From IMG/VR virus record IMGVR_UViG_3300014515_000026: a DNA stretch of 6,314 bases. The stretch is one strand, 5' to 3'. The notes under the pieces were generated by a model. The model was not told where the DNA came from. It searched no databases and saw nothing but the letters and a program-made list of their open reading frames with translations. This document shows positions 1-6,314 of the stretch, in pieces. Each line of letters opens with the position of its first letter. The first letter of the stretch is position 1. This DNA is from a virus. Its lineage: Duplodnaviria > Heunggongvirae > Uroviricota > Caudoviricetes. The translations under genes and the position numbers were made by a program.

Positions 1-663
1 GATATCACCGGCCCAAATCCGTTCAAGCAGTCCAGCCAGCCGCTCCAGCGGCAGGGCAGGATAGTGCCGTCTGACAGGAGGTGTGGTCACGCCGCCAAGG
101 TTTGCTGCAGGGTTCGTATCGATTAACTCCTGATGGACCGCATGGCGCATTATGTTACTCAGGTGCTGCCGTGTGCGGGACGCAACCTCCAGCAGATCTT
201 TTTCCTCGATCCCTTTCAGCAGGTCAATGAAATGACGGGGTTTAAGTTCTGATACAGGTAGGTTCCCGATGACCGGAAAGATGTGATTGTTCAGGCTGGC
301 AAGCAGACGGTCGGCGGTGTTCTGCGACCATTTCCTGTTACTTTTATGCCACGCCAGCGCCACGTTTTTAAAAACTTTCTCCGGTGTTCGTGAGCCACGT
401 TCAGCAGCCCGCTGCTGTACCGGGTTGATATTCAGCGCCAGTATTTTACGGATACCTTCACGTTGCTGTCGCGCATCAGACAGGGAGATGGCTGGATAGG
501 CACCCAGCGCAATGCGGGATTCTTTACCGCTAATACGGTATTTGAGATACCAGTGGCGGGAGCCACCCGGCTTGACCCGCAGATACAGACCGTGAGAATC
601 GGAGACTTTAAAGGGTTTATCAGAAGGCTTGAGGGTGCGGATTTTTGCGTCGGTAAGGGATAT
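1..663 (-). CDS. P4-type tyrosine integrase, N-terminal ~221 codons; the 3' part lies beyond the window start; no canonical start codon, so possibly a pseudogene
   Basis: The minus-strand frame is open from 663 down to position 1 with no stop. It translates to ISLTDAKIRTLKPSDKPFKVSDSHGLYLRVKPGGSRHWYLKYRISGKESRIALGAYPAISLSDARQQREGIRKILALNINPVQQ..., which matches the N-terminus typical of P4-family integrases as I recall it. A GGAG Shine-Dalgarno lies at 674-677 (minus). The frame opens after a TAA at 679-681. The codon where Met is expected is ATA (661-663). The ORF track's 287-499, 432-674 and 463-690 calls are other-frame overlaps. Confidence 0.8.
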   Translation of the reverse strand, partial: MSLTDAKIRTLKPSDKPFKVSDSHGLYLRVKPGGSRHWYLKYRISGKESRIALGAYPAISLSDARQQREGIRKILALNINPVQQRAAERGSRTPEKVFKNVALAWHKSNRKWSQNTADRLLASLNNHIFPVIGNLPVSELKPRHFIDLLKGIEEKDLLEVASRTRQHLSNIMRHAVHQELIDTNPAANLGGVTTPPVRRHYPALPLERLAGLLERIWAGDI

Positions 664-824
664 ATGGGGGTCACTCCATTATCGAACTAACCTGACCCCA
701 GATTTGACCACCAATTTTTCCCGATGCGTAGGGTAAAATCAAAATGCACCGAGAAGAGTTTTCACACTAACCTGTTGAATCAACATCAGATAAAGATTCG
801 CAAGGATGCATGAAAACAGAAAAT

Positions 825-2026: not shown

Positions 2027-2063
2027 CTTGGAATTACTTGGAATATTTTCTTGGAATATTTTC
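2027..2063. repeat. Tandem direct repeat: two full copies of TTGGAATATTTTC (2038-2050 and 2051-2063) plus a partial copy (2027-2037)
   Basis: Seen directly. It spans the integrase stop codon (2034-2036) and last 9 codons, about 50 bp from the serU 3' end. Candidate arm-type integrase binding sites, or a simple duplication. Confidence 0.6.
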
Positions 2064-3059
2064 AGGTAACGGGACATCAAGTGTTGGTGAAACTTTAACC
2101 TTCCTGTCATAGATTAGCACTTGCCCTTCGGTTTTGTGACCAGAGAAAAGTTGCTTATCCCGGCTGCTTCCTTCATAGTCTGAAATTCCTTTCGCCTTCA
2201 GATCATGAAAGGTGAAGTCGGTTAAAATACCTGAAATTTTTCCAGCACGATTTCTTGCATCTACCCACATTTCGTTAAAGCCTTTGTACATATATCGGTT
2301 GCCGTATTGATTGCTGATTACATAGGCGGATGTTGGTAACTGTTTTGCTTTTTCGATCGCCGCCTGTAATCGTGGACTCCATGCTTTTATCTGTTTTTTT
2401 CCTGTTTTCCCTTGCTGGATAAAGATCCCGTCGTTTCCAATCTGCTCCCATTTCAGCGATAACACATCGGAAACCCTCGCTGCACACAGATAGGCAATTT
2501 CCATTGCGATAAAAACAGGAAGAGGTGCAACGCTTAATACTGCCTGGTATTCTTTGTCGGTTACATATCGTTCGCGGTTTTTGGCCTTGAATTTACTTAC
2601 ACCTGCACATGGGTTAGCTTTCACGTACCCTCGCTCATACCCCCAACTGTAAACGCGGGACATACTGCTTTTTTCATGGTTGGCTTGCGTTTTACTCTGT
2701 TCCCCCCTCTTGTCCATGTATCGACGGATGTGTTCTGGTTTTATGGAATCTGCCGGCACCTTACCGAATACGGCAAGCAACTTTTTTTGATGTTGCAGAT
2801 AATCTTTTTGTGTTCTTGGACTGAGGTCACTGTAATAGGCGCTGGCGAGGAATTTTTCCCACAAGCGACCGAATGTCATTGCACGATCGCGATTATTTAC
2901 AGTTTCCTCATACTTTTTCCATAAAGCAGCTAAACCATCCTTGATGGCGGTTAGTGTTACAGATTCTCTGGATGTTGGTTTCCATACATAACTATATTTA
3001 TTTGGGTATACATTTGGAGGTAGTTTTTCGTGTTCAGGATTTTTCCTTCGTCTTCCCAT
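2034..3059 (-). CDS. int: Lambda-type phage integrase (tyrosine recombinase), 341 aa
   Basis: Begins MGRRRKNPEHEKLPPN, like lambda Int (MGRRR...LPPN). The C-terminal region carries ...AARVSD..., ...TFHDLKAKG..., ...FSGHKTEGQVLIYDRK..., aligning with the lambda Int R / H-x-L-R / GHK / Y catalytic blocks. It lies directly beside a tRNA 3' end, and its start overlaps the stop of an upstream small gene (TGATG at 3057-3061). Confidence 0.9.
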   Translation of the reverse strand: MGRRRKNPEHEKLPPNVYPNKYSYVWKPTSRESVTLTAIKDGLAALWKKYEETVNNRDRAMTFGRLWEKFLASAYYSDLSPRTQKDYLQHQKKLLAVFGKVPADSIKPEHIRRYMDKRGEQSKTQANHEKSSMSRVYSWGYERGYVKANPCAGVSKFKAKNRERYVTDKEYQAVLSVAPLPVFIAMEIAYLCAARVSDVLSLKWEQIGNDGIFIQQGKTGKKQIKAWSPRLQAAIEKAKQLPTSAYVISNQYGNRYMYKGFNEMWVDARNRAGKISGILTDFTFHDLKAKGISDYEGSSRDKQLFSGHKTEGQVLIYDRKVKVSPTLDVPLPENIPRKYSK

Positions 3060-3262: not shown

Positions 3263-3297
3263 AGCTATATCTCATAACCGCCGCTAACTATATACGG

Positions 3298-5796
3298 CTA
3301 ACGNNNNNNNNNNNNNNNNNNNNNNNNNNNNNNNNNNNNNNNNNNNNNNNNNNNNNNNNNNNNNNNNNNNNNNNNNNNNNNNNNNNNNNNNNNNNNNNNN
3401 NNNNNNNNNNNNNNNNNNNNNNNNNNNNNNNNNNCCGTTCTGGCATCGAAGTCTATGGCTTTCCCCAGCTCAACGATTGTGCGTACATCGCGATCGTTGT
3501 AGTAACGCCACGGGCAGGGGATACCCTGTCGTTCGTATGAACGGCGTAAAATCACGTTGTCGAAGTTGGCTCCATTTCCCCAGACCTGAACAAAAAATTC
3601 ACCGGAGTTTTCGTCGATAAATTCCCGCAATTGCAGTAGTGCATCATCTAACGGAATTTCATCGGTCAGAATGGCAGATTGCGCCTCACGTGATTGCTTC
3701 AGCCACCATTTAATGACGTCACGATCAATGACTCCGCCAGCAGTATCCAGATCGATGGTCTTGCTAAATTCCGGTCCCATATCTCCGGTTTGTGGATCGA
3801 AAAATATTGCGCCTATTGAGATAATCGGGGCATCGGGATTTTTTCCCATGGTTTCAAGGTCGATCATTAGATGGTCACACGTCATGCTGGTGGATGTGAT
3901 AACGTGATGACCGTTCGCCATAATTAAGGGATCTGCCGTCTCGCCAGTTTCACTATCGCTGGCGTGGTCCTGAGCGCTGCCAGCATTCTCCTTGTGTGGA
4001 TGTTCAGCGCCTTCCATTTTCTCAGAATCGTCTTCCTGAACTTCAACCTGGTTCTTGTCATCGAATGTTTCCTGGTATGTTGCGTCGCCCATCACCGCGC
4101 CACAATCAGGGCAGTTGCCGCCACCGCTCTTACCGCAGGCGGTGCAGATCTTTTCCGGTTCCTGTTGCGCTACTGGTTCGGATTGTTTCGTTTCTGGCTC
4201 GTTTTGTTGCGTATTTGGGCTGTTTTGCTCCGCTTTCTGGTCGTTCTGTTCCGTTTCTTGCTGGTTCTGGTTCACAGAATCGCGGGTTTCAATCCCCTTC
4301 ACCCATTTCGGATCGTTCGGGTCGCTAATCCCTGCAACAAATTCACCACGCGATACTGCAAGCAGCTGATTGGCGTCAGGCTGGCTGATATTGGCTGCCT
4401 GCATAATTTTGTTTACTTCGTCAGCGGTAACTTTTACCGGCTCTGGTTGTGCGGTCGTGTCAGACGCGCCAGTATTTTGTTGTGAGCCTGAGTATGTGCC
4501 GTTTTTACGGGCAAAATATTCTTCTTTCGTGATTTCAGTAGCCCCGGTAGCCAGCGCCTTATCCAGACCTGAAAGTTTGTTTGCACGACCGTATTTTTCG
4601 CCATCCTTATCTGTGAAGAGGAAGTAGAACGGCCCCTCACGCTCTACAGATGGTTCGACTTCCACTTTGCATTCGGTTTTTTCGTTGTCCGGCATTGCCG
4701 TTTCCACTGCATCAGTTTCAGGTACTGGCGACGGGAGAGTATCAGTTGTGCTCTGATTTGTTCCTTCATCTTCAAATACGCCCTTTGTAGTCAGGTATTC
4801 AGTGATGTATTTGTTCAGTGCCACAGGGTCTTTGTGAATGTCGATCGGACGCTCACGGACAAGACCAAAAATAGTCTGACGGTTGTAGCGAACGGCATCA
4901 GGTTGTTTGCGCATTGATGCGGAAATGCGCTTCCAGTCTTCGCGATCCTTGTCGATAACTTCATTTTTTGCCCAGCGATGGATGCTGCCGTCAATGTTTC
5001 CGGCATTAATATCGCCAGGCCACAGAGCGTAGGCCAGTTCTTCATCCAGCGTTTTCCATGTCTGCTTGTATTCGCGACGAATGGCGGCAGTGGCGGGGTT
5101 GATTTTTCCTGCTGAGTTTTCAGTGTGCTGCCGGTTGACTCTGGCGCGGGCAAGATCAACAACAGACGTGTATTTCCTGGTTTCTTTGCGTCCGGCTTCG
5201 CGACGTTTTTTCCAGGTGCGTAATTCTGTCTGGATCTCAGGCCATTTTGCACCCGGCTTACATTTATGTTTAACCCACCCGATGGCGAGCAGCTTAAGCT
5301 CTGAATACATGACGTTAACTTCAGGCATTTTCATCAATGCCTCAACGATATGCCCGTCGAATGTTGCCATGTCCTCCTGCAACAATTCCTGTGCACTAAT
5401 CACCATATCAACGGTGATGTTTTCACATGTACCGAACTTAACCAGGACTGCGTTCTGTACTTCAAGGGACAGCTTGTCAAAATTGACGTTCATCGGATCG
5501 GATTCTGGTTCGACCGGAATAAAGGAAGCGGATTCCTCATCCCAGCGGTTTTCCTGCATATATTCGGTATCCCAGGAGTCTATAGCAGGGCGGGGCATGC
5601 CGGTTTTATCCTCGCAGACAAGAAATTTATAAGCGCAGTCCTGAGCAGCCGGATATTGCTCCAGGAATTGCCAGGTAAATTTGGCACGGGCGCGGCGTTC
5701 GTCACCGGCTTCAATGGCAGTGGCTACAGCAACTGCACCTTCTTCCTTTATTGCCTGTTCGTCCGGAATGGCGGCGCAAATAAAGACTTTACTCAT
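3298..5796 (-). CDS. Large prophage nuclease, RecE-like (exodeoxyribonuclease VIII family) with a C-terminal DEDD-type 3'-5' exonuclease domain; the 3' end is obscured by the N run
   Basis: A continuous 787-codon frame from the ATG at 5794-5796 (GAGG Shine-Dalgarno about 9 nt upstream) to the N run. The C-terminal region has DEDD exonuclease motifs: MIDLETMG (Exo I) and VWGNGANFDNVIL (Exo II). A CxxC-x8-CxxC zinc ribbon is at 4102-4146 and a Q/E/N-rich linker at about 4153-4284. A middle segment, LLAVSRGEFVAGISDPNDPKWVKGIETRD, resembles what I recall of RecE-family proteins. The stop at 3298-3300 applies only if the N run is true to length. Confidence 0.7.
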   Translation of the reverse strand: MSKVFICAAIPDEQAIKEEGAVAVATAIEAGDERRARAKFTWQFLEQYPAAQDCAYKFLVCEDKTGMPRPAIDSWDTEYMQENRWDEESASFIPVEPESDPMNVNFDKLSLEVQNAVLVKFGTCENITVDMVISAQELLQEDMATFDGHIVEALMKMPEVNVMYSELKLLAIGWVKHKCKPGAKWPEIQTELRTWKKRREAGRKETRKYTSVVDLARARVNRQHTENSAGKINPATAAIRREYKQTWKTLDEELAYALWPGDINAGNIDGSIHRWAKNEVIDKDREDWKRISASMRKQPDAVRYNRQTIFGLVRERPIDIHKDPVALNKYITEYLTTKGVFEDEGTNQSTTDTLPSPVPETDAVETAMPDNEKTECKVEVEPSVEREGPFYFLFTDKDGEKYGRANKLSGLDKALATGATEITKEEYFARKNGTYSGSQQNTGASDTTAQPEPVKVTADEVNKIMQAANISQPDANQLLAVSRGEFVAGISDPNDPKWVKGIETRDSVNQNQQETEQNDQKAEQNSPNTQQNEPETKQSEPVAQQEPEKICTACGKSGGGNCPDCGAVMGDATYQETFDDKNQVEVQEDDSEKMEGAEHPHKENAGSAQDHASDSETGETADPLIMANGHHVITSTSMTCDHLMIDLETMGKNPDAPIISIGAIFFDPQTGDMGPEFSKTIDLDTAGGVIDRDVIKWWLKQSREAQSAILTDEIPLDDALLQLREFIDENSGEFFVQVWGNGANFDNVILRRSYERQGIPCPWRYYNDRDVRTIVELGKAIDFDARTXXXXXXXXXXXXXXXXXXXXXXXXXXXXXXXXXXXXXXXXXXXXR
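3304..3434. other. Run of 131 N: an assembly gap or masked sequence inside the 3' end of the nuclease gene
   Basis: Seen directly. The ORF track's 832-aa call reads through it as 44 X codons. Confidence 1.
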
Positions 5797-5875
5797 TTTG
5801 TTTTACCTCATTACAGATTTAAGGGTGAACAAATCCCTGCCATTGCTGGCATATAAAAATGAAACTGGATATTAA

Positions 5876-6079
5876 TTACGGCGCTGTTTTTAATCCTGCC
5901 GGGATTTCGTTATTATCCATGCGAATAACTTTCTCGACCGGATAACAGTTACCAGGAATTTTCTGTTCTGCTGCGGCAGCCATACATTCTTTCATTGAAC
6001 CATATATACCAGTAACCACATCAACAGGTTCGCCAGTATTAAGAAAAACAGTCAGAGTGAGGGCAACAGCAGTATTCAT
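5876..6079 (-). CDS. Small hypothetical prophage protein, 67 aa, with a hydrophobic signal- or TM-like N-terminus and two Cys; DUF1482-like by recall
   Basis: MNTAVALTLTVFLNTGEPVDVVTGIYGSMKECMAAAAEQKIPGNCYPVEKVIRMDNNEIPAGLKTAP. I prefer the ATG at 6077-6079, which overlaps the upstream stop as ATGA and has AGGA about 10 nt upstream. The track's longer start at 6133 has no Shine-Dalgarno. Confidence 0.5.
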   Translation of the reverse strand: MNTAVALTLTVFLNTGEPVDVVTGIYGSMKECMAAAAEQKIPGNCYPVEKVIRMDNNEIPAGLKTAP

Positions 6080-6264
6080 TGCCAGCGTCCTTTTTGCATC
6101 AGGCGTAAACGGGCCAGCATTGAAACAATGCATATTTTATTTAATAACTCCCGTTCGTGTTTTCTCTTGTTAATGGCATCTTCAGTAAATTCAGGGTTAC
6201 TGATAGTGACACCAATTTCAAAACAACCTTCAGACGTATTAACGTTTGGTAATAACGTTTCCAT
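6076..6264 (-). CDS. Small hypothetical prophage protein, 62 aa, acidic N-terminus and basic helix-like C-terminus
   Basis: METLLPNVNTSEGCFEIGVTISNPEFTEDAINKRKHERELLNKICIVSMLARLRLMQKGRWQ. A GAGGA Shine-Dalgarno lies 7 nt upstream of the ATG at 6262-6264, and its stop overlaps the next start (ATGA). Its own frame also stays open up to the window end, so the true 5' end could lie beyond the window. Confidence 0.45.
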   Translation of the reverse strand: METLLPNVNTSEGCFEIGVTISNPEFTEDAINKRKHERELLNKICIVSMLARLRLMQKGRWQ

Positions 6265-6314
6265 TATCGCGTCCTCAACAATGAATTTTGTGATGCGGTG
6301 CCTGGTGCCTCCAG

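What the first reader, a model, noticed from the sequence alone, without database searches (positions are those of the whole stretch)
5876..6264. Translationally coupled small-ORF pair directly upstream of the nuclease gene
Two small genes (62 and 67 aa) are linked by an ATGA stop/start overlap at 6076-6079, each with its own Shine-Dalgarno. A third open frame enters from the window end and stops at 6264-6266, overlapping the 62-aa start as TAATG. The 67-aa product has a hydrophobic N-terminus and two Cys, suggesting a membrane or periplasmic location; the 62-aa product is acidic then basic. This is the position where lambdoid phages carry kil, cIII, sieB or ral-type host-interference genes, and such tightly coupled small pairs can also be toxin/antitoxin or exclusion modules. 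I do not recognise either protein with confidence.
Basis: partly seen in the sequence, partly recalled or inferred. Interest (0 to 1): 0.5.

Follow-up and report, generated by a model that had tools for sequence, protein, structure and literature searches.

The report
Known prophage genes dicB and ydfD
The two overlapping small genes are the already studied E. coli prophage genes dicB (a cell-division inhibitor that also blocks lambda infection) and a ydfD-family lysis gene, so the finding is real but ordinary.

Summary
The pair is real. On the minus strand, 6264..6076 encodes 62 aa and 6079..5876 encodes 67 aa. They are joined by an ATGA stop/start overlap, and each has a Shine-Dalgarno sequence. 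Both are known genes. The 62-aa protein is DicB (Pfam PF05358, E 4e-39, full length; 90% identical to K-12 DicB). The 67-aa protein is a DUF1482/YdfD homologue (PF07358, E 1.3e-19; 67% identical to K-12 YdfD, annotated "lysis protein"). Identical DNA occurs in many E. coli chromosomes, where RefSeq annotates dicB, DUF1482, exonuclease, DUF4224, integrase and tRNA-Ser in the same order.

The claimed third ORF is not a gene. It has only 18 sense codons between stops and no ATG or GTG. That stretch is the end of the dicF-dicB leader. Window 6272-6300 is the 3' arm of a predicted 28-bp long-range stem that covers the dicB ribosome-binding site.

Published K-12 work gives the mechanisms. DicB binds MinC and, through ZipA, dismantles FtsZ rings; it also blocks ManYZ-dependent lambda DNA entry. 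YdfD causes division-dependent lysis, reportedly by inhibiting IspG, and DicB co-expression prevents that lysis.

Novelty: already known.

The parts
6076..6264 (-). dicB, 62 aa plus stop: cell-division inhibitor DicB
   Evidence: Pfam PF05358 E 4e-39, residues 1-62 on profile positions 1-62. NCBIfam NF049927 135.6 bits against a cutoff of 100. 90% identical to K-12 DicB. RefSeq annotates 'dicB' on identical DNA. The exact protein is seen on 836 contigs.
5876..6079 (-). ydfD-family gene (DUF1482), 67 aa plus stop: homologue of the Qin lysis protein YdfD
   Evidence: Pfam PF07358 E 1.3e-19. PHROG 1092 E 1.2e-35. 67% identical to K-12 YdfD, with C32 and C45 conserved. RefSeq annotates a 'DUF1482 family protein' with the same start. 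The exact protein is seen on at least 999 contigs. A 1-nt indel near the stop adds four residues (KTAP) compared with K-12.
6076..6079 (-). ATGA stop/start overlap (the dicB TGA overlaps the ydfD ATG)
   Evidence: Read directly from the sequence. The same overlap occurs in K-12, mEp460, PPompW (as GTGA) and a Klebsiella phage. The dicB and ydfD matches share one coordinate in all 20 phage records that carry DicB.
6272..6276 (-). dicB Shine-Dalgarno GAGGA, 7 nt before the ATG
6088..6092 (-). ydfD Shine-Dalgarno AAGGA, 8 nt before the ATG, inside the end of dicB
   Evidence: AAGGA is conserved in K-12, mEp460 and the Klebsiella phage.
6265..6314 (-). Last 50 nt of the untranslated dicF-dicB leader. 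DicF itself lies about 175 nt upstream of dicB, outside the window.
   Evidence: That frame has 18 codons between stops and no ATG or GTG. DicF (RF00039, 73.4 bits) is at L001 5825-5876. The leader is 173-174/174 identical in four loci whose coding genes differ.
6272..6300 (-). 3' arm of a predicted 28-bp long-range RNA stem. Its 5' arm lies just after the DicF terminator, outside the window. The stem covers the dicB Shine-Dalgarno sequence.
   Evidence: MFE -70.4 kcal/mol, z -6.2, 0 of 200 shuffles fold as well. Pair list. Inverted repeat. The stem is kept in 8 loci, including the Rac kilR leader, with 98.2% of cells paired. The reported RNase III cut that gives a 72-nt DicF (53 + 19 nt) would fall in the 5' arm (PMC5069750).
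5797..5875 (-). 79-nt spacer between ydfD and the exonuclease gene, with a weak 5-bp hairpin at 5838-5851
   Evidence: Terminator-like hit. The fold is no better than shuffles, z -0.15. In K-12 a 1,608-nt ydfABC-dicFB-ydfD transcript was seen and none extending into ydfE (PMC10448788).
3298..5796 (-). Context: 832-aa exonuclease gene downstream. It is the intact counterpart of the K-12 pseudogene ydfE. Its 3' end is masked by Ns at 3304-3434.
   Evidence: Pfam PF16473 E 1.6e-52. 86% identical over 256 aa to the K-12 ydfE translation. N run.

Best explanation
These are the last two small genes of a dicBF-type operon of a Qin-like lambdoid prophage integrated at tRNA-Ser(CGA) beside mtfA in E. 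coli.

Gene 1 is dicB. From K-12 work, the 62-aa protein binds MinC. The complex is recruited to the septal ring through ZipA and depolymerises FtsZ, so cells filament. The same DicB-MinC interaction inhibits the ManYZ inner-membrane proteins. This blocks DNA entry of lambda-type phages and also blocks mannose uptake.

Gene 2 is a ydfD homologue. In K-12, YdfD causes rapid lysis that depends on cell division. It is reported to bind and inhibit IspG of the MEP isoprenoid pathway, which starves envelope synthesis.

The ATGA overlap means ribosomes finishing dicB reinitiate on ydfD, so the lysis protein would be made together with the division inhibitor that suppresses its lysis. This last step is an inference.

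The operon is normally silenced by a DicA-type repressor upstream, outside the window. Transcripts must also read through the DicF terminator. The dicB ribosome-binding site is predicted to be buried in a long stem that is probably the known RNase III site.

Shown here: the identity, the gene anatomy and the conservation. Taken from the literature on K-12 homologues: the biochemical mechanisms. Inferred: the coupling logic and the role of the leader.
For: Identity:
- Pfam DicB E 4e-39 and DUF1482 E 1.3e-19, both far above their cutoffs.
- NCBIfam DicB 135.6 bits against a cutoff of 100.
- 90% identity to K-12 DicB and 67% to K-12 YdfD.

Context:
- Identical DNA is annotated dicB / DUF1482 / exonuclease / DUF4224 / integrase / tRNA-Ser / mtfA in APEC O1 and others.
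- K-12 Qin has the same order, dicF-dicB-ydfD-ydfE.
- The exonuclease is 86% identical to ydfE.
- DicF lies upstream on the extended DNA.
- The same arrangement is present in phage mEp460.

Selection:
- dN/dS is 0.14-0.51.
- The overlap is conserved.

Mechanism, from papers:
- DicB with MinC, ZipA and ManYZ: PMC6832061.
- YdfD lysis, its rescue by DicB or SulA, and IspG binding: PMC8835842.
- Operon regulation and transcripts: PMC10448788.

Leader stem. The 72-nt RNase III form of DicF: PMC5069750.
Against: - Nothing argues against the identity.
- The mechanisms are carried over from K-12 homologues, not tested on these alleles.
- This YdfD allele is only 67% identical to K-12 YdfD and carries a 4-residue C-terminal extension. 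In K-12, removing one C-terminal residue, or the L63A change, abolished killing (PMC8835842). Lytic activity of this allele is therefore uncertain.
- The IspG mechanism rests on one study, which had no enzyme-kinetic assay.
- In the operon context, deleting dicF and dicB relieved toxicity although ydfD remained (PMC5069750). YdfD may matter little at native levels.
- The long stem shows only one-sided substitutions, with no double compensatory change in helix 1.
Confidence: 0.93

Rival explanations
1. The pair is a genuine toxin-antitoxin module. YdfD would be the toxin and DicB the cognate antitoxin, neutralising it by direct binding, with coupling setting the ratio between them.
For: The genes are small, overlapping and co-transcribed. 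DicB co-expression abolishes YdfD lysis (PMC8835842, citing Masuda 2016). The linkage is conserved in all 20 phage records that carry DicB.
Against: - SulA, an unrelated division inhibitor, rescues equally, so the rescue is indirect.
- DicB is itself the more toxic product (PMC5069750).
- Neither protein hits a TA or defence family in Pfam, NCBIfam or PADLOC.
- YdfD homologues in Klebsiella, Salmonella and Citrobacter phages lack DicB and sit behind unrelated small ORFs.
Confidence: 0.05
2. The 67-aa protein acts at or across the inner membrane, as a membrane-anchored or exported envelope-targeting lysis factor, rather than as a cytoplasmic IspG inhibitor.
For: The N-terminus is hydrophobic (11-residue hydropathy maximum 2.19 at residues 3-13) and conserved in character across homologues. 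There are two invariant Cys. The IspG model comes from a single study without kinetic data.
Against: - There is no basic n-region, and the hydrophobic run is only about 11 residues. The 19-residue window maximum of 1.27 is below the usual 1.6 threshold for a membrane span.
- Pull-down, ITC and FRET show IspG binding through residues 1-28.
- IspG overproduction or HMBPP rescues lysis.
- Cys mutants still bind IspG (PMC8835842).
Confidence: 0.12
3. The real product is a longer DicB isoform of 97 aa from the upstream in-frame GTG, so the 62-aa ORF is only its C-terminal part.
For: The dicB frame is open for 45 codons upstream, with a GTG 35 codons upstream, in every locus examined. The mEp460 record annotates a 94-aa form.
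Against: - The Pfam and NCBIfam models are 62 positions long and match residues 1-62.
- A strong Shine-Dalgarno sequence lies before the internal ATG.
- K-12 and RefSeq annotate 62 aa.
- The title of Cam et al. 1988 says translation starts at an in-phase internal start (reference list).
- The upstream stretch is conserved at all codon positions (173-174/174) and is heavily base-paired. That fits a constraint on the RNA, not on a protein.
Confidence: 0.04
4. The genes are inert relics of a decaying prophage with no present function.
For: dicBF loci are usually repressed, and many lie in cryptic prophages (PMC10448788). In APEC O1 the neighbouring integrase is frameshifted.
Against: Both ORFs are intact and dN/dS is below 1. 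The exact alleles are each seen on hundreds of contigs. The same pair is present in isolated phages. In the window the integrase ORF is intact at 341 aa.
Confidence: 0.05

Closest known systems
DicB of the E. coli K-12 Qin prophage (b1575; Pfam PF05358)
   Same: 62 aa, 90% identical and alignable end to end. It has the same position after dicF and before ydfD, the same ATGA overlap and the same leader.
   Different: Six substitutions: K2E, V25E, Q36H, P57Q, C60R, A61W. Three are in the last six residues, which overlap the ydfD ribosome-binding site. The prophage sits at tRNA-Ser/mtfA instead of the Qin site.
YdfD of Qin (b1576, 'lysis protein'; Pfam DUF1482 PF07358)
   Same: It has the same position, the same overlap with dicB, the same hydrophobic N-terminus, the GEPVD and EQKIPGNCYPV motifs and both Cys.
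   Different: It is only 67% identical; residues 14-30 are diverged. It is 67 aa against 63 aa because a 1-nt indel adds KTAP after L63. Activity of this allele is untested.
Lambda Kil / Rac KilR (prophage FtsZ-directed division inhibitors)
   Same: It sits at the same place in the early-left operon of a lambdoid prophage and is a small division-blocking protein. Rac kilR is preceded by a roughly 80% identical version of the same structured leader and by a DicF-like sequence.
   Different: There is no sequence similarity (Pfam reports only DicB). From my own knowledge of the literature, DicB works through MinC and ZipA, whereas Kil and KilR act on FtsZ more directly.
Single-gene lysis proteins (phiX174 E, Qbeta A2, LysM)
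   Same: YdfD is a small protein that lyses cells by blocking supply of an envelope precursor rather than by degrading the wall, as framed in PMC8835842.
   Different: The reported target is different (IspG). The gene lies in the early arm of a tailed lambdoid prophage, not in a small ssRNA or ssDNA phage. Lysis is suppressed by its own upstream neighbour.
Rfam STnc100 (RF02076), a prophage-associated structured sRNA
   Same: The dicF-dicB leader aligns to the whole 206-position model, including the GGUGAAU...CACCUGGAGGCACCAGGCACC core.
   Different: It scores 38.7 bits, below the gathering score of 47. Here it is an mRNA leader ending in the dicB start. Reported STnc100 copies lie elsewhere, for example downstream of stx2 (PMC12370729).

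Membership tests
DicB (Pfam PF05358 / NCBIfam NF049927) | Full-length match to the family profile above the curated cutoff | tested here: met
   132.6 bits against a cutoff of 27, residues 1-62 on positions 1-62. 135.6 bits against a cutoff of 100.
DicB (Pfam PF05358 / NCBIfam NF049927) | Location in a dicBF-type operon: downstream of the DicF sRNA, next to a lambdoid immunity region | tested here: met
   On DNA identical to the window, DicF (73.4 bits) lies 175 nt upstream. ydfC and HTH repressor genes lie further upstream.
DicB (Pfam PF05358 / NCBIfam NF049927) | Binds MinC and inhibits division in a ZipA-dependent way; inhibits ManYZ | not testable with these tools
   Known for the K-12 protein (PMC6832061). 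This allele is 90% identical.
YdfD / DUF1482 (Pfam PF07358) | Match to the family profile above the curated cutoff | tested here: met
   70.2 bits against a cutoff of 25, residues 6-61 on positions 3-57 of 57. PHROG 1092 E 1.2e-35.
YdfD / DUF1482 (Pfam PF07358) | Two conserved cysteines and a hydrophobic N-terminal segment | tested here: met
   C32 and C45 align with the K-12 cysteines and are kept in seven homologues. The hydropathy maximum is at residues 3-13.
YdfD / DUF1482 (Pfam PF07358) | Division-dependent lysis on expression; binding to IspG | not testable with these tools
   Reported for K-12 YdfD (PMC8835842). This allele has a 4-aa C-terminal extension, so its activity needs testing.
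Type II toxin-antitoxin module | Either protein belongs to a recognised toxin or antitoxin family | tested here: not met
   Pfam, NCBIfam and PADLOC return only DicB and DUF1482, or nothing.
Type II toxin-antitoxin module | The antitoxin neutralises the toxin by direct binding and autoregulates the operon | not testable with these tools
   The literature points to indirect rescue, since SulA also rescues. Repression is by DicA, not by the pair.
   There is no K or R before the hydrophobic run. The run is about 11 residues. The 19-residue Kyte-Doolittle maximum is 1.27. No dedicated predictor was available.
Rfam STnc100 (RF02076), for the leader | Score at or above the family gathering threshold | tested here: not met
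   38.7 bits against 47. 27.6-34.2 bits in three other loci.
   18 sense codons between stops, no ATG or GTG. No ORF of 20 aa or more ends there. Nothing is annotated there.

The most novel reading that the evidence does not exclude
The ultra-conserved structured leader ahead of dicB may be a shared post-transcriptional gate for prophage division-inhibitor cassettes. Its 3' arm occupies window 6272-6300. The 28-bp stem would keep the dicB ribosome-binding site closed, and with it the translationally coupled ydfD. RNase III cleavage, the same event that makes the 72-nt DicF, would then remodel the stem, linking sRNA maturation to production of DicB and YdfD. The same leader precedes kilR in Rac prophages. 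It may be an unrecognised relative of the STnc100/PasD RNA family working as a cis element.
Probability: 0.25. Interest if true: 0.4.

Novelty: already known. Interest (0 to 1): 0.1.

Why it matters
It matters little as a discovery. dicB has been studied since the 1980s and ydfD since 2016, and RefSeq already annotates this exact DNA.

The result is useful as a clean resolution. The window shows the intact ancestral layout (dicB-ydfD-exonuclease-xis-int at a tRNA-Ser site) of the arm that is decayed in K-12 Qin.

Two small questions remain open and testable:
- Is the common 67-aa YdfD allele, with its C-terminal extension, still lytic?
- Does the long stem over the dicB ribosome-binding site gate DicB and YdfD synthesis?

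Tried and rejected
- The third ORF was rejected after extending the sequence on identical DNA.
- The Protein Data Bank sequence search found nothing for either protein at E up to 1.
- PADLOC found no defence-system family. NCBIfam has no model for the 67-aa protein.
- Rfam at gathering threshold finds only the two tRNAs in the window.
- The promoter and terminator scan found no more than shuffles give. The hairpin after ydfD is not better than random, so I make no terminator claim.
- The alternative 85-aa start (ATG at 6133) for the second gene was rejected. There is no Shine-Dalgarno sequence before it, RefSeq and K-12 use the ATG in the ATGA overlap, and the Pfam match starts after it.
- Masuda et al. 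2016 (PMC5975272) and Cam et al. 1988 (PMC338298) are not held. Their content is cited only as reported by PMC8835842 and PMC6832061. Faubladier et al. 1990 was also unavailable, so I could not check whether the leader stem has already been drawn in print.

Full report
**Observation**

On the minus strand the window carries two small ORFs. One runs 6264..6076 (62 aa) and the other 6079..5876 (67 aa). The junction reads CAATGA. The ATG of the second gene (6079-6077) overlaps the TGA of the first (6078-6076).

GAGGA lies 7 nt before the first ATG, and AAGGA lies 8 nt before the second. The 62-aa product has net charge -6 in its first half and +7 in its second half. The 67-aa product has a hydrophobic run at residues 3-13 and Cys at positions 32 and 45.

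**The third frame**

The TAA at 6266-6264 exists. To see what lies beyond the window I used DNA that is 100% identical to it over positions 5701-6314 (E. coli APEC O1, locus L001). There the frame has only 18 sense codons between two stops, with no ATG or GTG. No ORF of 20 aa or more ends at that position, and RefSeq annotates nothing there. It is not a gene.

The dicB frame itself is open for 45 codons upstream, and a GTG there would give a 97-aa ORF. Several things point to the 62-aa product instead:
- The family models are 62 positions long and match residues 1-62.
- A Shine-Dalgarno sequence sits before the internal ATG.
- K-12 and RefSeq both annotate 62 aa.

**Identity**

The 62-aa protein is DicB. 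It matches Pfam PF05358 at E 4e-39 (132.6 bits against a cutoff of 27) and NCBIfam NF049927 at 135.6 bits against a cutoff of 100. It is 90% identical to K-12 DicB.

The 67-aa protein belongs to DUF1482. It matches PF07358 at E 1.3e-19 and PHROG 1092 at E 1.2e-35. It is 67% identical to K-12 YdfD, which RefSeq calls 'lysis protein'. Both cysteines and the GEPVD and EQKIPGNCYPV motifs are kept.

Of 5426 complete E. coli genomes, 4324 have a match to this stretch. The exact proteins are seen on 836 contigs (DicB) and at least 999 contigs (the DUF1482 protein).

**Context**

The window reads, right to left on the minus strand: dicB, ydfD homologue, an 832-aa exonuclease, a DUF4224 excisionase-like gene and an integrase. 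It then meets tRNA-Ser(CGA), mtfA and tRNA-Asn.

K-12 Qin has the same order, dicF-dicB-ydfD-ydfE-(IS2)-intQ. The exonuclease here is 86% identical to the ydfE pseudogene remnant. On the extended DNA, DicF (Rfam RF00039, 73.4 bits) lies about 175 nt upstream of dicB. ydfC and two HTH regulator genes lie further up.

The same cassette is present in isolated phages such as mEp460, between the C2-type repressor and the exonuclease, xis and int genes. This is therefore the early-left arm of a lambdoid prophage.

**Conservation**

dN/dS against K-12, mEp460 and PPompW is 0.29-0.51 for dicB and 0.14-0.26 for ydfD. In all 20 phage records that carry DicB, the DicB and YdfD matches share one coordinate, which is the signature of the ATGA or GTGA overlap.

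Eight further phage records, from Klebsiella, Salmonella and Citrobacter, have a YdfD homologue but no DicB. In the three loci inspected (L004, L006, L007), it still overlaps a different small upstream ORF.

**Mechanism from the literature on the K-12 homologues**

- DicB binds MinC. The complex is targeted to the septal ring by ZipA and depolymerises FtsZ. The same DicB-MinC interaction inhibits ManYZ, giving about 100-fold resistance to lambda and other ManYZ-dependent phages (PMC6832061).
- YdfD lyses cells when expressed alone. Lysis is prevented by co-expressing DicB or SulA, so it depends on cell division. YdfD binds IspG, and lysis is relieved by IspG overproduction or by HMBPP (PMC8835842).
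- The operon is repressed by DicA and derepressed by the antirepressor Rem. A ydfABC-dicFB-ydfD transcript of 1,608 nt was detected (PMC10448788).

My inference is that the ATGA overlap ties YdfD synthesis to DicB synthesis, so the lysis factor is made only alongside its suppressor.

**Caveats on transfer to this allele**

A 1-nt indel replaces the K-12 stop after L63 with four extra residues, KTAP. In K-12, deleting one C-terminal residue or changing L63 to Ala abolished killing. In the operon context, deleting dicF and dicB relieved toxicity although ydfD remained (PMC5069750).

**What sits where the third ORF was proposed**

The 174 nt between DicF and the dicB ATG are 173-174/174 identical between this prophage, K-12, mEp460 and PPompW. 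Between the same loci, dS is 0.08-0.69 for dicB and 0.8-2.9 for ydfD.

The region folds far better than shuffles: -70.4 kcal/mol, z -6.2, with 0 of 200 shuffles folding as well. A 28-bp stem joins the sequence just after the DicF terminator to the sequence just before the dicB ATG. The second arm includes the GAGGA and corresponds to window 6272-6300.

Across eight loci the stem is 98.2% paired. Eighteen pairs are invariant, seven change on one side only and stay paired, and none shows a double compensatory change. An inner hairpin shows two double changes.

One of the eight loci is the leader of kilR in a Rac prophage, which is preceded by a sub-threshold DicF-like sequence. RNase III processing of the full-length mRNA is reported to give a 72-nt DicF, that is 53 + 19 nt (PMC5069750). 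That places the cut in the 5' arm of this stem. The stem is therefore plausibly the known RNase III site, and I infer that it occludes the dicB ribosome-binding site.

The leader also aligns over the full STnc100 model (RF02076) at 38.7 bits, below the gathering score of 47. I do not file it as a member of that family.

**Rivals**

- A true toxin-antitoxin pair is unlikely. Rescue is indirect (SulA also rescues), DicB is itself toxic, there are no TA or defence-family hits, and YdfD occurs without DicB in other genera.
- An exported or membrane-spanning YdfD is not supported by the sequence or by the reported cytoplasmic target. No dedicated predictor was available, and membrane association is not excluded.
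- A 97-aa DicB isoform and inert relics are both unlikely, for the reasons given above.

**Verdict**

Both genes are already known and annotated.

Novelty: already known. Interest: low. The only mildly open points are the activity of the extended YdfD allele and the role of the conserved leader stem.

Noticed in passing
window 6265-6314 (-), continuing beyond the window; L001 5877-6050: The dicF-dicB leader is 173-174/174 identical in four loci whose flanking coding genes have dS of 0.08-2.9. It folds with z -6.2 into a structure whose 28-bp outer stem covers the dicB Shine-Dalgarno sequence. It is probably the RNase III site that yields the 72-nt DicF.
   Followed up: partly
L010 and L011 (E. 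coli Rac prophages), positions 545-800: A roughly 80% identical copy of the same leader lies between sieB and kilR, a different division inhibitor. It is preceded by a sub-threshold DicF-like sequence (39.1 bits against a gathering score of 48). kilR is start/stop-overlapped with ydaE.
   Followed up: partly
L001 5874-6083 (corresponding to window 6232-6314 and beyond): There is a sub-threshold, full-length match of the leader to Rfam STnc100 (RF02076): 38.7 bits against 47, E 5.5e-7. A 2026 preprint links STnc100 to the PasD sRNAs. The relation to this cis leader is unexplored.
   Followed up: partly
window 5876-5890 (-); alignment A3 columns 620-640: A 1-nt indel shifts the ydfD stop, so this allele ends ...PAGLKTAP (67 aa) instead of ...PAGL (63 aa). 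Published K-12 mutants show that the C-terminus is critical for killing.
   Followed up: partly
L004 2254-2692; L006 and L007 around 1300-1700: YdfD homologues in Klebsiella, Salmonella and Citrobacter phages have no DicB. They are still translationally overlapped with unrelated small upstream ORFs (37-46 aa in Klebsiella; about 65 aa in Salmonella and Citrobacter).
   Followed up: partly
L005 1316-1504 (phage PPompW_132418): This DicB variant has an N-terminal half like the one here, but its C-terminal 20 residues are unrelated (LLNDNSILSRIALLELGIIGEQQ). The upstream leader is nevertheless 174/174 identical.
   Followed up: no
window 3304-3434: A run of 131 N (masked sequence) lies inside the 3' end of the exonuclease gene. 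The ORF end at 3298 and the 52-aa ORF at 3288-3446 reported by the ORF lister are therefore artefacts of translating N.
   Followed up: no
window 2034-3059 (-): The integrase ORF is intact here (341 aa), whereas the otherwise near-identical APEC O1 locus is annotated as frameshifted. The prophage abuts tRNA-Ser(CGA) at 1892-1981.
   Followed up: no
window 1-667 (-): Beyond tRNA-Asn (825-900), the corresponding APEC O1 DNA is annotated as a second tyrosine recombinase pseudogene with an internal stop. This suggests another integrated element at the tRNA-Asn site.
   Followed up: no
phage collection: A 2016 paper reported no DicB or DicF hits among about 2,000 phage genomes. The 2025 phage collection now has 20 records with DicB and 28 with a YdfD homologue, including isolated lambdoid phages.
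   Followed up: yes
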